A DNA stretch of 63,998 nt, counting the filler, from Octopus bimaculoides (Eukaryota): NCBI RefSeq assembly GCF_001194135.2. It is 5 parts of 5 records of this genome, joined end to end, with 100 filler letters (N's around TTAATTAATTAA, not from the genome) between each part and the next. Parts side by side here need not be neighbours in the genome. Positions count along the whole stretch, not along the records: positions 1 to 20,540 come from NC_068986.1; positions 20,641 to 46,781 come from NC_068981.1; positions 46,882 to 58,748 come from NC_069005.1; positions 58,849 to 62,825 come from NC_069001.1; 1 more part is not named here. The stretch is one strand, 5' to 3'. Below are positions 1-62,569 of this stretch, one piece after another. Under the pieces are notes generated by a model. That model worked only from the letters and a program-made list of their open reading frames with translations. It did no database searches and was not told the DNA's origin. Each line of letters begins with the position of its first letter. The first letter of the stretch is position 1. Made by a program: the position numbers and the translations under genes.

Positions 1-214
1 TACTAGTATAACGCTCGAGAATTCAAATAGTCTCTAACGTTCGAGCCTACGCCTTTCCACAGAAAGGAACACAGAAAGAAACAAGCAGAGAAATATGTAT
101 ATATATATTATTTCGTCAGTCATTATGCCTCTGATTTCAAACTCCGCCAAGGATTAGAGTACCTACAGAATTTAAAAATATTAGTCTCTAGACACAAATC
201 CCGAAAGTTTTTTT

Positions 215-393
215 GTGGAGGGGCTGGTCGATTATGTCGACCCTCCAGTACGCAACTGGTACTTAATTTATCAACCGAGAAAGGAGTAAAGGCAAAGTCG
301 ACCACGGCGGAATTTGAACTCAGTACATAAAAACAAACGAAATACCGCTAAGCATTTTGCCCGGCGTGGTAACTTTTCTGCCAGCTCGCCGCC
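215..393 (-). mobile_element. SINE family C (GGCGGCGAGCTGGCAGAA head)
   Basis: GAGTTCAAATTCCGCC B-box-like motif. Further copies or fragments lie near 425, 1090, 3590, 54570, 56820, 58849, 59400, 59700 and 61150. Confidence 0.7.
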
Positions 394-1990
394 ATACTTA
401 TAGAATTTAATATTACGAAAGTGTAGGCGGCGAGCAGGCAGAACCATTACCACGCTGGTCAAAATGTTTAGTGGCATTTCGTCCGTCATTGCGTTCTGAT
501 TTCAAGTTTAACTTTGCCTTTCGTCAATTTGGGGTCGATAAAGCAGGTAACAGTTGAGCACTGGCGTTGATGTAATCGACTTACTCCCTACTCTAGAATT
601 GTTGGCAGAATTGTTGCAATAGCGAGCAACTAAGGCTTAGGTTGCATTTCGTTGGTCGTTTCTTTTTGATTTCAAATTCCGTCGATGTGCTCCTGGCCAT
701 TTGCCATTTCAGCGTTCGGCGGGGTCGAGTTTGCTCATCACTGACTTTGCTTGCACGTCATCGTTTCAGGGTCAATAAATTAAGTACCAGTTGAAATCGT
801 GGGTCAGTATAATCAATTTACTTCCTTCCATGAAATTACTGTCTTTTTACCGAAATCTTAAATCAGTATTAGCTAATACATATAGGAGATCGTTTTTAAA
901 TGTATCCATGCCGCTAAGCATTGAGGTCTTCGACGTATTATTTAAGTAATTGTGGAGAGACGTTAATCAAGAATCAACTCTACTTATATGACCCTACTGC
1001 AGAGAGTTAAAACTAAATAAGTTTGTTGGAAAAAGGGTTACACAGAATTTAAAAATATTAGTCTCTAGACACAAATCCCGAAAGTTTTTTGTGGAGGGGG
1101 CTGGTCGATTATGTCGACCCTCCAGTACGCAACTGGTACTTAATTTATCAACCGAGAAAGGAGTAAAGGCAAAGTCGACCACGGCGGAATTTGAACTCAG
1201 TACGTAAAAACAAACGAAATAGCGCTAAGCATTTTGCCCGGCGTGCTAACTTTTCTGCCAGCTCGCCGCCATGAAAGTACAAGATAATTTTCAGTGTTAG
1301 AACGTATTTAAAAAGATTTTGATATTGATTGAGAAATAATATCTTCGAGAGGATCAGATATTCATCGATATATGCATCATGAACTCAGAAAATAGGCTAA
1401 TCTCTAATAAATATGAAAATTGTTTTTGAATTATCAGAGGAGGTTATTACAATTATTTTTTACGGCATTTGGTGTCATGCATGAATAATTGCTACGAGTT
1501 TGTAAATGGTAATCATGTTAGCATTAATATAGAGATATCTTTTATTCTGTATTCCGCCATCCGTTGAATCTTCAATTTATTTTACATTAAACAAACATAC
1601 TTTAAATTAAGCAAATAACATTTTTCTAATCTCCCAAAATATTCGATACAATTCATGCTAAACTTAATCTAATATATGATTTAAAACTAGCACCAGAAAT
1701 CTTTGAAAACGCCTTTAAAGAAAAGAAGTTCTTTATTGAAACTTGTATATGTACGTTAAACAGCTCAGCTCAGTCGATTGGTTATTCATAGGAGTGTTCA
1801 CAGTGTAACAATACAAAGTTATACCGTATACCAAACTATCATTCGTAAATGCGATAGTTTCAAGCGAATAAGGAGTTTTCTTGCGGTAGGTGACTACAAT
1901 AGTAACATAATCAGATTAATGGGATTCCACTGAAGATGCCTTATTTCACTCATCGAGAAAAATATAAATATATATATATACATTGTCATA

Positions 1991-2312
1991 TAGGCGCAGG
2001 AGTGGTACTGTGGTAAGTAGCTTGCTTACTAACCACATGGTTCCCGTTTTAGTTCCACTGCGTGGCACTTTGGGCAAGTGTCTTCTACTATAGCCTCGGG
2101 CTGACAACAGCCTTGTGAGTGGATTTGGTAGACGGAAACGTAAAGAATCCCGTCTTATATATATGTATATGTATGTATATATTTCGGCAAGAGAGGCCGA
2201 TAGAATAATTACTAGGCTTATAACGAATATGTGCTGGGGTCGATTTGCGCGACTAAAGGCGGTGCTCCAGCATCGCTGCAGTCAAATGTCTGAAACAAAT
2301 AAAAGAAAAAGA
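1991..2312 (+). mobile_element. tRNA-derived SINE family A (internally deleted copy)
   Basis: GGCGCAGGAG head, A/B-box-like motifs and GGCGGTGCTCCAGCAT..CTGAAACAA tail, shared with copies at 3076, 8400, 21931, 50185 (-) and 60535. Confidence 0.8.
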
Positions 2313-58848: not shown

Positions 58849-59849
58849 AAATTGAACTCAGAACGCAGTGGCAGACGAAATACCGCTAAGCATTTCGCCC
58901 AGCGTGCTAACGTTTCTGCCATCTCGCCACCTTAAGAAATGAGATCTTTTCAATGCGGTCACGACTTGCTATACACACGCACGCACGCATACACAGCCAC
59001 ACGGACACACAGACACACAGACACACACGCACGCACACACTCACAGGGAGAGAAAAAAGAGAGAGGCAGACAGGCAGATGTAGAGAGTGTATACAAGATT
59101 CAATTTATATGACGGAGCAGTTTTGTTCCATGATGCATTTAGGTTGTTATTGTCGTTGCTGTTTTACCCCTGTTTAGTCCTGATCCATCAAACCTATGAT
59201 GAAAAACATTCTGACCATGTAATTTTAGGCAACAATGTATCTCGGGTTACGTCATCTAATGTGCTATTTATTTAGACAGCTGGTCGTGGTATCAGACAGT
59301 TTGGGCTGTTATTTCTAGCATGGCCAGTGGTAACATCGAGTCCCTCTCTCACTGGCTTCTACACTTGTGGTCATGCAGAGTAAAACGTTGAAATTGCAAT
59401 AATAAATATTTCTGTTTCAGGCACAAGAAGACCAGAAATTTTAAAGTGGGTGGGGATCGAAGTTAGTGAATGGTATCAATCCCAATACATGACTAGTAAT
59501 TCTTTATCGAGCTCAAGAGTGTCGAACGGAAAAGTCAATCTCGGCGGCATTTGAATTCAGAATGTGAAGACAAACGAAACCATGTTAAGTGTTTTTTTCC
59601 GGCGTGCTAATGGCCCTGCCAGCTTGATTCCTGGGTCTGTTATGTAATAAATAGTAATTGTAACGATTTTAAATTGTTGCCCAAAGCTAGCAATTTTAGT
59701 GGGAGAAAGTGGATGCTATCGATCTAAGTACTTCATTGAATCTGAAAGATGAAAGGCAGAGGTGATCTCAGCAGGATTTAAAATCGGAATGTAAAGAGCT
59801 GTAAAACATTTTTCAGACAGTTTGTTCATTATATATATATATATATATA

Positions 59850-59975
59850 TGGGAGAATATACAAAAAATAACAACAGACGAGGACAGGTGGTGTAAATAA
59901 CAAAAGTATATATTAGTATGACGCTCGGGAATACGGAAAGTCTTTGACGTTTCGAGCTACGCTCTTCAACAGAAT
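59850..59975 (-). mobile_element. Short repeat with CUGUUGA hammerhead variant, embedded in (TA)n
   Basis: Homologous to 1-120 and ~10175-10320; flanked by (TA)n on both sides. Confidence 0.6.
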
Positions 59976-62569
59976 ATATATATATATATATATATACACA
60001 CACAACCCCCACCCTACCACTTAATGTGAGTGTCCCAACCAACAATAAATACTTATTATTGGCGGTCCAAATATTCGTCGCACCAACTGCAACCTGCTCA
60101 CTGACATGATTCTGCTGCAACAAAACGGTACAGTGCTTTTGTGTCAGTGACCAGGTCGCAGTTGGTGCGACGAAACATCTCACACAGAATAATATATGTT
60201 TAAGTGATGTTAACTGTTTCTGTGTATTTTTGAATGACTAATATATATATCTTCCAAAGTGTTATTGTTTTACTTTCGAGACATAGTCTCAGACCAAATC
60301 ACTCGCCAGACAATCACGTCTCCAAAATTCAAAGAGCACTTCTAAGAATTCACATATTTCCTATCACTTCAAATCCGAAGAATACATAGTCACACAATTC
60401 ATCAATAATCAATAATTGTACAATTAATCAATAACTATACAAATAATCAATACCTATTCAATTGATGAATAACTCTACAAGTAATCGATAATTGATTTTG
60501 TAATTCATAGGTTTGGTGAGAAATCTTATGATAGGCGCAGGCATGGCTGGGTGGTTAAGAATCAAGGGGTTTCGGGTCAATCCCATTGTATACAACCTTG
60601 GTAGGTGTATTCTACGATAGCCCTCGGCTGACCCAAACCTTCTGAATGAATATGGTTGACGGAAACTACGTGGAAGCCTATCGTATGTATATATACTTGC
60701 AGTACGAGTTTAATTCGTTCCATGACCGAGTTCGTCTTAGCATTTACTCGTTTTACAAATCAATTTTCCCCATTGAAATTAGCTAAGATATAATTAATCT
60801 GTTCCAGACCCCCAAAACCACTCAAAAATATTTTTTTATGGGTTTTAAAACAGAAAAGGTGTAGTTACAAGTAAAATGACAATTATAAAAAAGAGAATGC
60901 AAAAGAAATATGTAAACTGTGTGCTCGTACTGCGGATTTCCGCTCGTACTNNNNNNNNNNNNNNNNNNNNNNNNNNNNNNNNNNNNNNNNNNNNNNNNNN
61001 NNNNNNNNNNNNNNNNNNNNNNNNNNNNNNNNNNNNNNNNNNNNNNNNNNNNNNNNNNNNNNNNNNNNNNNNNNNNNNNNNNNNNNNNNNNNNNNNNNNN
61101 NNNNNNNNNNNNNTATATATATATATATATATATATATATATATATATGTAGAATTTGAACTCAGAACGTGAGATACAGCAAGGCTTCTCGTTCGACGCT
61201 ATATTTCTTACCCACCCGTCATCCTAAACCGGTATTTCATTTTCATTGGCCTCAGAAGGTTGAAAGTCGAAGTTGAATCCGGTGACATTTAATTTCAATG
61301 TGCAGACGACTGGAGTAAACCCCACAGGGTGTTGAATCTCCAACGACTCTGTTATTTCGCCGCATAACAGTCGCTAAATGAAATGGTAAAATTGAGAATG
61401 GAAAGAAACTGGTGAGAATCTGTGTCAGAAAGAACCCAGGAGGGGGTGCGATGATTCCAATAATTGTAGTTATAGTGAAGAATGGTAAATGTTTGATGTT
61501 TCGAGCTACAAGCTCTTTATCAAGGAAGAGAAAAGAAACGAGGAGAGAGAGAGAGAGAGAGAGAGAGAGAGAGAGAGAGAGAGAGAGAGAGAGAGAATGC
61601 GGAGAGAGAGGAGAAAGCGGGAGAGAGAAAGCGGAGAGAGAGAAAAGGAGTTCTATGCTGTGTAGTTGAAATGATTGTTACATGTGCAGTATTGGTACTC
61701 TAGGTTTTTCGGTCATCGGGTACCTCTTATAAATGATTTTAATGTTTCTTTTCTAATAATTTTTTTTTACTTGGGTACCTCTGACGAGGTATCTAGTTTC
61801 TATTCTATAAATATGTTTTGCCCCTTTAATGTTATTTTCCCACACTGTAACGGTACCCATCTACCCATCACGTCGATTAAAAACAAAATACATAAAACTT
61901 TGTCTGGATTTTACAGTTGGATTATAAAAGTACGGCATGCATCTCACGATAGAACAATTCAGAAAAAAAAAAAGAAAAAAGAGAACTGGCTTCTTGAAAG
62001 ACATCAACAGGTTCATAATAATACCTAATAAATTATGCCTTGAAACAGTTAATTTAATCTTAATTAATCAACACGCTCAGTTAATCTTTAATTAATCAAC
62101 ACGCACAAAGTCATTGAGGGAAACAGATCAATGCATGAACTCTATCTAAGGCAAATAGGGAGGACAATTCCGAAAATGAAATAAGAAAATGAAGTGAGTC
62201 CATCGAAATCTGATTTAATTAGCAGGGAAAACAAAGTGGAATTGAATTAATCTAATCTTTGACAGGTAACAAATTCCAGACAATAAGGGTGGATATTTAA
62301 ATATGGTACCGTACCATTAATTAAATGAGAAGGAAATCTTATCCTTCTTGGATATATCTCTTTATTGTTTTGAGTCTACCAAAAGATTTGGTTACTATTT
62401 CTAGCACATCTAGCGGCTGCACCGAGCCTCTCTCAGTATGTTTAATCAGTCGGCGAAATATGGCAAGAGACAACAAACAACAACCGAAATTAATGGCTTA
62501 CGAGTAATTGATATCTTTGATGTGATTCAATCGTTATCTCGTCCAACGTTTCATTATATATTTATGTAC

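What the first reader, a model, noticed from the sequence alone, without database searches (positions are those of the whole stretch)
31..61527. Window-wide collection of hammerhead-ribozyme-like termini from several unrelated short repeat families
Seen: CUGANGA-helix II-GAAA-short self-complementary helix III-UH motifs, intact or decayed, at 31-67 (-), 8871-8905 (-), 9161-9197 (+), 10241-10277 (-), 15737-15790 (-), 16162-16214 (+), 18301-18341 (-), 21410-21501 (-), 21633-21723 (+), 47784-47823 (+), 53578-53627 (+), 59942-59974 (-) and 61491-61527 (-). Their helix II sequences are unrelated, so they represent several families. Established: Penelope-like retroelements and related non-autonomous retrozymes carry minimal type I hammerheads that work as dimers. 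Inference: this genome hosts a diverse Penelope/retrozyme-like population, and much of its apparently anonymous intronic DNA consists of ribozyme-bearing termini.
Basis: partly seen in the sequence, partly recalled or inferred. Interest (0 to 1): 0.75.

Follow-up and report, generated by a model that had tools for sequence, protein, structure and literature searches.

The report
Hammerhead-bearing ends of Penelope retrotransposons
The 13 motifs are mostly decayed end-pieces of seven repeat families that carry a hammerhead (self-cutting RNA) motif, five of them traced to Penelope-type jumping genes, which is a known arrangement; one family also has a tRNA-like segment where most of its short copies begin, likely a small-RNA (Pol III) promoter.

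Summary
The 13 sites fall into seven families (A-G). A relaxed type I descriptor finds 5 of them, against a shuffle mean of 0.22 (max 2, 60 shuffles). Only 53578 is fully intact; four sites are relics. Five families run into Penelope-like element (PLE) reverse transcriptase/endonuclease frames elsewhere in the genome: A Neptune-like, B/C/F Hydra-like, D Penelope/Poseidon-like. G is a 352-nt terminally redundant, retrozyme-like unit; E is old and unlinked. The sites are 5'-truncated pLTR stumps, three as head-to-head pairs on opposite strands that cannot dimerise in cis. They cover 5-6% of the window, not 'much' of it. This is published biology (Cervera 2014; Craig 2021 lists an octopus PLE hammerhead). 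Two twists: family A has U at core position 6 in 57 of 59 copies, and family D's pLTR begins with a tRNA-like A/B-box segment at which 19 of 28 copies that reach it stop, which suggests Pol III-made, SINE-like RNAs. This scan noted that tRNA-headed layout before in other genomes; I did not find it in print. Cleavage and Pol III transcription are untested.

The parts
1..93 (-). Family A (Neptune-like PLE) pLTR stump; hammerhead relic (one A of GAAA lost)
   Evidence: 86% over 94 nt to L331
8871..8905 (-). Family E relic, head-to-head with 9161; core not recognisable
   Evidence: 26 nt at 88% to 9161
9151..9298 (+). Family E, old repeat with decayed hammerhead (helix II, GAAA and near-palindromic helix III kept); no coding frame linked
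   Evidence: 3 other genomic hits at 71-80%
10143..10308 (-). Family A pLTR stump; core A6U plus U4C
15696..15954 (-). Family C (Hydra-like PLE) inverted partner, short 3' end at (TA)n; core damaged (A6C, U16.1 lost)
   Evidence: (I11)
16041..16324 (+). Family C pLTR stump with long 3' end; intact core at 16170-16212
   Evidence: upstream of L064 encodes a PLE endonuclease end
18137..18473 (-). Family G, about one unit of a 352-nt terminally redundant retrozyme-like repeat; core intact, helices I and II damaged
   Evidence: 87% over 333 nt to L134
21375..21560 (-). Family B (Hydra-like PLE) inverted partner; intact core at 21417-21494; ends at an assembly gap
   Evidence: (I9)
21558..21928 (+). 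Family B pLTR running on into the start of the element; intact core, damaged helix I
   Evidence: 94% over 371 nt to the upstream pLTR region of L081
47341..48006 (+). Family F (Hydra-like PLE) 3' UTR and pLTR ending at (TA)n; U4C core at 47788-47819
53469..53497 (+). 3' half of the tRNA-like head of family D, with the B-box-like segment (the 5' half is missing in this copy)
   Evidence: alignment starts at head position +41
53498..53713 (+). Family D (Penelope/Poseidon-like PLE): (AAT)n, intact minimal hammerhead at 53583-53622, and the tail; this stretch codes the N-terminus of the element's protein in tandem copies
59862..59974 (-). Family A, young stump between (TA)n tracts; A6U core, 5'-truncated inside helix I
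   Evidence: 100% to L004 over 116 nt
61487..61548 (-). Family A relic, core decayed
   Evidence: 78% over 67 nt to L331, E 4e-6

Best explanation
The sites are 5'-truncated 3' ends (pseudo-LTRs) of five Penelope-like retroelement families, plus one retrozyme-like unit and one unlinked old family, and they were likely written in by PLE reverse transcriptase/GIY-YIG proteins. Shown: family membership, continuity into PLE coding frames for A, B, C, D and F, fixed 3' ends and ragged 5' ends, head-to-head pairs, and a tail on one copy of a pair. Inferred from published PLE work: reverse transcription starts just past the pLTR, stops early and often folds back, so each insertion keeps the hammerhead by position, not by selection; in a full pLTR-ORF-pLTR transcript the two hammerheads would pair through palindromic helix III and cleave, possibly with protein help. 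The window copies are likely inert passengers. In family D a tRNA-like A/B-box segment at the start of the pLTR likely acts as a Pol III promoter whose RNAs give the many copies that begin exactly there.
For: B: L081 holds pLTR - RT (YRDD, FLDVTL) - endonuclease - pLTR. C: L064/L318 upstream ends in a PLE endonuclease C-terminus. F: L122 runs from the pLTR into a PLE N-terminus, L321 has the endonuclease end upstream. D: L312 has a 792-codon open frame between two pLTRs, RVT_1 E 1e-10; homologues carry PF00078/PF26215 and GIY-YIG labels. A: 4 of 30 upstream-anchored loci (L329, L334, L338, L349) hold PLE-like coding pieces, with YIDD in L329/L334 and the cysteine linker and YIGQTG endonuclease in L329/L349. 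Head-to-head pairs: D 21 of 40 loci; B 7 of 25, C 10 of 24, F 5 of 20, G 4 of 15, A 1 of 30, before removing loci fetched twice. In D the partner lacks the tail in 14 of 15 two-copy loci where both ends were scored, as described in PMC8557442. Family-majority cores are intact or single-variant. G helix I shows an A-U/G-C double change (9 vs 4 sequences; 97.6% of cells paired, 0 of 500 shuffles). D 5' ends: 19 of 28 copies that reach head position +5 stop within -5..+5, about 0.06 per nt against 0.002-0.006 elsewhere; 23 of 30 head-anchored loci show no scored upstream PLE sequence.
Against: E and G were not linked to any coding frame. Clade names rest on motifs compared by eye with the supplement of PMC8557442, not on a tree. 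Pfam recognised none of the three family B frame pieces. No cleavage data; in PAc, hammerhead mutants did not affect insertion in vitro (PMC11167929). The tRNA match of the D head is weak (14.3 bits, gathering 29, E 4). A short palindrome overlaps the head's first bases and could itself cause fold-back. RNA-seq of a related organism was unstranded, mostly read-through, and showed no pile-up of ends at the head start or at cleavage sites.
Confidence: 0.9

Rival explanations
1. All seven families are non-coding retrozymes that spread through circular RNA.
For: G has a 352-nt unit with terminal redundancy and a canonical helix I with covariation; head-to-tail joints occur in RNA reads.
Against: A, B, C, D and F continue into PLE coding frames and have ragged 5' ends. 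The G joint also stands in contigs of two runs of unknown kind, so genomic redundancy explains it. Holds for G alone (about 0.7).
Confidence: 0.05
2. The motifs are chance matches in AT-rich, microsatellite-rich DNA.
For: 8 of 13 sites fail the descriptor; monomer folding z-scores are weak, -2.4 to +1.1 for 10 sites; the loosest scan is at shuffle level.
Against: 5 hits against 0.22; each site belongs to a repeat family whose majority form has the topology; it sits at the PLE terminus where hammerheads are published.
Confidence: 0.02
3. The window copies were kept by the host as working ribozymes that process transcripts.
For: 53578 is intact; 16162 and 21410 nearly so. Related repeats occur in RNA-seq reads as parts of other transcripts.
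Against: Most copies carry core or helix lesions, many of the CpG-decay type; no same-strand intact partner lies near any site; an inverted pair would pair with its own antisense.
Confidence: 0.04
4. For family D only: 5' ends cluster at the tRNA-like head because reverse transcriptase stalls or folds back at a structured, palindromic spot, not because RNA starts there.
For: A 5-6-bp palindrome overlaps the head start; several copies show short fold-backs there; copies also often end in the (AAT)n run (17 of 62, some misfiled). T-run scarcity in D is not beyond synonymous-codon shuffles (P 0.33) and RTE LINE pieces are also poor in T4 (3 in 2.5 kb).
Against: Many head-start copies have unrelated flank and no fold-back; A- and B-box-like words are kept while the T-arm and acceptor stems are broken; no T4 run is shared by more than 2 copies across the 2.75-kb element; the start codon lies just downstream of the head.
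Confidence: 0.35

Closest known systems
[quoted passage not shown]
   Same: Many sequence families per genome, mostly single motifs from truncated PLEs, pairs 100-700 bp apart on opposite strands, extra nucleotide between 9 and 10.1 (A, D), palindromic helix III
   Different: The parts read name C3U/G8A as a core variant; family-wide A6U (A) and U4C (F) are not mentioned there. Figures and supplements were not seen.
Hydra-clade PLEs, including Hydra-1_Obim with its hammerhead (Craig et al. 2021, PMC8557442; passages and supplement hits)
   Same: B, C and F share N-terminal RMRWKAxFFD-like and C-terminal CxLC...C motifs by eye, (TA)n insertion, inverted 5'-truncated partner, tail on one end, extended helix III
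   Different: The hammerhead listed there for Hydra-1_Obim differs in sequence from B, C and F; no tree was built
Poseidon element PAc of the green anole (Frangieh et al. 2024, PMC11167929; passages and main text part 1 of 2)
   Same: Family D: RT then GIY-YIG, frame begins inside the pLTR and runs through the hammerhead, tail just past the pLTR
   Different: No tRNA-like A/B-box segment is described for PAc in the text read
Metazoan non-LTR retrozymes (PMC7229834, passages; bioRxiv 10.64898/2026.07.22.740005, part 1 of 5)
   Same: Family G: about 350-nt non-coding unit, canonical type I hammerhead, terminal redundancy; proposed PLE dependence
   Different: G copies seen are about one unit plus a short overlap, some with inverted partners; C.A mismatch at 10.1-11.1; no circle shown
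Schistosome Sm-alpha/Sj-alpha SINE-like elements (review PMC6765202, passages; tRNA origin recalled)
   Same: Promoter followed by a hammerhead in a short repeat, as in head-start copies of D
   Different: In D the head is part of the terminal repeat of a protein-coding PLE, and the short copies carry PLE inversions and tails

Membership tests
Type I hammerhead ribozyme | CUGANGA and GAAA cores with UH, helices I-III in type I order | tested here: met
   Family majority forms of B, C, D, G; window copy 53578
Type I hammerhead ribozyme | Invariant core in families A and F | tested here: not met
   A: U6 in 57 of 59; F: C4 in 15 of 24, T in 8 (anchors include the core, so tallies lean to it). 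Natural A6C and U4C variants have low activity (PMC3088659)
Type I hammerhead ribozyme | Helix covariation | tested here: met
   G helix I double change, one event shared by a subfamily. Across 13 representatives every position of helix I and II shows 4 or more pair types, but those sites were chosen for pairing, so that count is descriptive
Type I hammerhead ribozyme | Self-cleavage | not testable with these tools
   No end pile-up in unstranded RNA-seq; no assay
Rfam hammerhead families | Match to a curated model | tested here: not met
   None in 150 rows shown of 170; none for L178 2780-3160
EN+ Penelope-like elements | Single frame with RT and C-terminal GIY-YIG-type endonuclease, upstream of the motif | tested here: met
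   B L081, D L312/L178, A L329/L349; C and F endonuclease end or N-terminus only; not found for E, G
EN+ Penelope-like elements | pLTR on both sides of the frame | tested here: met
   B L081, D L312 and L313; F one-sided (L122); not seen for A
EN+ Penelope-like elements | Inverted 5'-truncated partner and tail on one end | tested here: met
   rare in A (1 of 30 loci)
EN+ Penelope-like elements | Clade placement by RT phylogeny | not tested
   Motifs compared by eye with the PMC8557442 supplement
Non-LTR retrozyme (family G) | Non-coding unit of 150-400 nt in tandem or terminally redundant form with type I HHR | tested here: met
   352-nt repeat distance in L134; no PLE frame adjoining in 15 loci
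Non-LTR retrozyme (family G) | Circular RNA | tested here: inconclusive
   Head-to-tail joint in RNA reads but also in contigs of runs of unknown kind
tRNA-derived SINE (head-start copies of D) | tRNA-related head with A and B boxes | tested here: inconclusive
   Rfam tRNA 14.3 bits, below gathering 29; box words fit the consensus as recalled
tRNA-derived SINE (head-start copies of D) | Copies begin at the head | tested here: met
   19 of 28, from 17 loci; 23 of 30
tRNA-derived SINE (head-start copies of D) | Separate non-autonomous lineage | tested here: not met
   The same head, (AAT)n and body form the pLTR of the coding element
tRNA-derived SINE (head-start copies of D) | Pol III transcription | not testable with these tools
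   T4 scarcity is compatible but not specific

The most novel reading that the evidence does not exclude
Family D is a young, protein-coding Penelope element whose terminal repeat has captured a tRNA-derived Pol III promoter that starts both SINE-like hammerhead RNAs and the whole 2.7-kb coding transcript, which lacks any shared Pol III terminator; and family A amplified to thousands of copies with a U6 core predicted to be nearly inactive, so cleavage would be dispensable for it.
Probability: 0.2. Interest if true: 0.7.

Novelty: new member of a known kind. Interest (0 to 1): 0.35.

Why it matters
The collection itself is expected for a PLE-rich animal genome and adds catalogue entries only. 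Two details are useful. Family A (U6) and F (C4) are natural tests of whether PLE hammerheads need to cut at all, an open point after PAc mutants inserted normally. Family D, with a near-intact natural copy and 98-99% identical siblings, makes it testable whether a PLE uses a tRNA-type Pol III promoter and spawns SINE-like copies of its own end; Pol III-made coding RNA would be unusual.

Tried and rejected
Rfam: no hammerhead in the listed rows for the window, six D loci or the D pLTR. ARAGORN at a lowered threshold gave 37 mostly implausible calls in 21 loci, including 2 on the head as tRNA-Ser(act); not used as support. Monomer folding of 10 sites is uninformative. Pfam missed the B frame pieces and two short D pieces. 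Family A copies near Hydra-like RT loci (L196, L207) are separate insertions, not their pLTRs. My first idea that D is a stand-alone SINE was rejected when L101 and L178 ran into a PLE frame. RNase P processing of the head was set aside because its T-arm and acceptor stems do not pair. T-run test: 1 run in the 2,376-nt L312 frame, synonymous shuffle mean 2.1, P 0.33; base shuffle mean 4.3, P 0.07: not significant. No control from a head-less Poseidon family was found among held loci. Sequencing runs: no RNA holder listed; three raw RNA runs of a related organism were unstranded and mostly read-through: no verdict on expression, start site or cleavage. Lunse et al. 2017 is not held; only its title was seen. 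Whether the stretches are intronic was not tested. Print searches for a tRNA/Pol III head in a PLE pLTR: (listings only; none listed describes it); subscription journals, Repbase and Dfam were not searchable.
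Full report
Setting. The window is a pack of five stretches (joints) of G000, a 2.3-Gb animal genome; from its repeats and the literature match I infer an octopus-like host, which no call proves. It is 36% GC and rich in microsatellites. Long frames checked are LINE and mariner fragments (7 of 131 listed frames scanned). 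The only PLE-coding match in the window is the N-terminal piece inside the family D copy.

Observation. The 13 sequences are present. A strict type I descriptor finds 2 (0-1 in 12 shuffles); the loosest setting is at shuffle level. A scored descriptor with one core mismatch finds 5, against mean 0.22 and max 2 in 60 local dinucleotide shuffles. The other 8 are recognisable through their families. Only 53578 is fully intact; 31, 8871, 9161 and 61491 are relics; the rest have helix lesions or variant cores.

Families. Genome searches place the sites in seven families: A (31, 10241, 59942, 61491), B (21410, 21633), C (15737, 16162), D (53578), E (8871, 9161), F (47784), G (18301). First-look candidates, which are not copy numbers: A 77 and 2,564 (two queries), B 1,434, C 37, D 3,289, E 4, F 527, G 2,081. 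At most 40 were scored and 4-30 fetched per search. The flanks do not match across families. Together they cover about 3.1-3.5 kb of 59.3 kb non-N bases.

Links to coding elements. B: L081 holds pLTR, a broken RT frame, an endonuclease domain, a long UTR and a second pLTR ending at (TA)n; a search with its RT gave 5,719 candidates, and 40 of those loci, fetched with flanks, carried further, sequence-divergent hammerhead motifs with palindromic or near-palindromic helix III. C: the longest copy reaches an endonuclease C-terminus. F: L122 continues from the pLTR into a PLE N-terminus and L321 has the endonuclease end upstream. By motif these three resemble the Hydra clade, for which PMC8557442 lists an octopus member with a hammerhead. 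A: 4 of 30 upstream-anchored loci hold PLE-like coding pieces, with a cysteine linker and GIY-YIG-like domain of Neptune type in L329 and L349. D: L312 has 792 open codons between two pLTRs, RVT_1 at E 1e-10, Penelope/Poseidon-like; the frame starts in the pLTR and runs through the hammerhead, as in PAc. G: a 352-nt unit with terminal redundancy and a covarying helix I, retrozyme-like. E: three other hits at 71-80%, unlinked.

Insertion anatomy. 3' ends are fixed, often at (TA)n; 5' ends are ragged in A, B, C and F. Head-to-head pairs are common (D 21 of 40 loci; B 7 of 25, C 10 of 24, F 5 of 20, G 4 of 15, A 1 of 30, with some loci fetched twice). In D the partner lacks the tail in 14 of 15 two-copy loci scored at both ends; the first copy was selected for having it. 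This is the layout of PMC8557442. PMC4209133 already reports many motif families per genome, single motifs from truncated PLEs and opposite-strand pairs 100-700 bp apart.

Mechanism. Shown: the anatomy above. Inferred from PMC11167929 and PMC4209133: reverse transcription starts just downstream of the pLTR, so even the shortest insertion contains the hammerhead; early stops and fold-backs give stumps and inverted pairs. In a pLTR-ORF-pLTR transcript the two motifs would pair through helix III. Published activity is low or protein-assisted, and was not needed for insertion in vitro. The window's pairs lie on opposite strands and cannot form such a dimer.

Twist 1, variant cores. A has U at position 6 in 57 of 59 copies, with near-identical young copies. 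F has C at position 4 in 15 of 24; the 8 with T may be CpG decay (inference). Natural A6C and U4C variants are reported as weakly active (PMC3088659); the 8 papers listed gave no natural hammerhead A6U that I read.

Twist 2, tRNA-like head in D. About 30 nt after the stop codon the pLTR has a 76-nt segment with A- and B-box-like words (consensus recalled; Rfam tRNA 14.3 bits, E 4), then (AAT)n, the start codon and the hammerhead. Of 62 copies in 40 loci, 32 align upstream of (AAT)n, 17 end in it, 7 were filed as truncated in the body and 6 meet gaps; some of the 17 and 7 are misfiled short partners. Of 28 that reach head position +5, 19 (17 loci) stop within -5..+5, 4 at -12 to -17 (likely short fold-backs) and 5 run further. 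In 30 head-anchored loci, 23 show no scored upstream PLE sequence, though 2 of these show some 15-25 nt by eye and one locus was fetched twice. The sense strand has 16 T4 runs in 68.5 kb of aligned copies, none shared by more than 2, against roughly 7 per kb in most Hydra-like frames. Against reading this as proof: codon shuffles give P 0.33, RTE LINE pieces are also T4-poor, a palindrome overlaps the head start, and RNA-seq gave no start signal. I put Pol III origin of the short copies at about 0.55 and of the coding transcript at about 0.2. I saw the head; the look-up then showed that this scan had noted the same layout in other genomes and gave me the whole-element idea tested. Four paper searches listed nothing that describes it.

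Verdict. Real, explained and largely known: new members of PLE hammerhead termini and one likely retrozyme. Interest 0.35, carried by the D head and the A6U family.

Noticed in passing
L081 (minus strand), after the downstream family B pLTR: A family A copy sits in the (TA)n tract that ends the family B element: two PLE families stacked at one microsatellite.
   Followed up: no
L172-L211 (e.g. L175, L183, L187, L196, L199, L202): Further hammerhead motifs beside Hydra-like RT loci, with long helix II and different palindromic helix III sequences; L196 has a perfect inverted pair.
   Followed up: partly
L178 3660-5440 (minus): A Hydra-like RT fragment lies next to a family D element on the opposite strand.
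   Followed up: no
window 7122-7490 (+): A 122-codon open stretch with protein-like composition and no Pfam match; possible host exon.
   Followed up: partly
window 30079-30591 (-): Mariner transposase fragment (HTH_48, E 6e-13).
   Followed up: partly
window 44253-46781, 52543-52941, 57478-58748, 24297-24734: LINE RT fragments; several are mutually similar (inverted repeats I2-I4); RVT_1 hits for two.
   Followed up: partly
L086, L227, L231: Three family D copies share a different sequence, not the tRNA-like head, just upstream of (AAT)n; possibly a chimeric subfamily.
   Followed up: no
family G alignments: C.A mismatch in place of the usual G10.1-C11.1 pair in 12 of 15 copies; T in 2 would restore pairing.
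   Followed up: no
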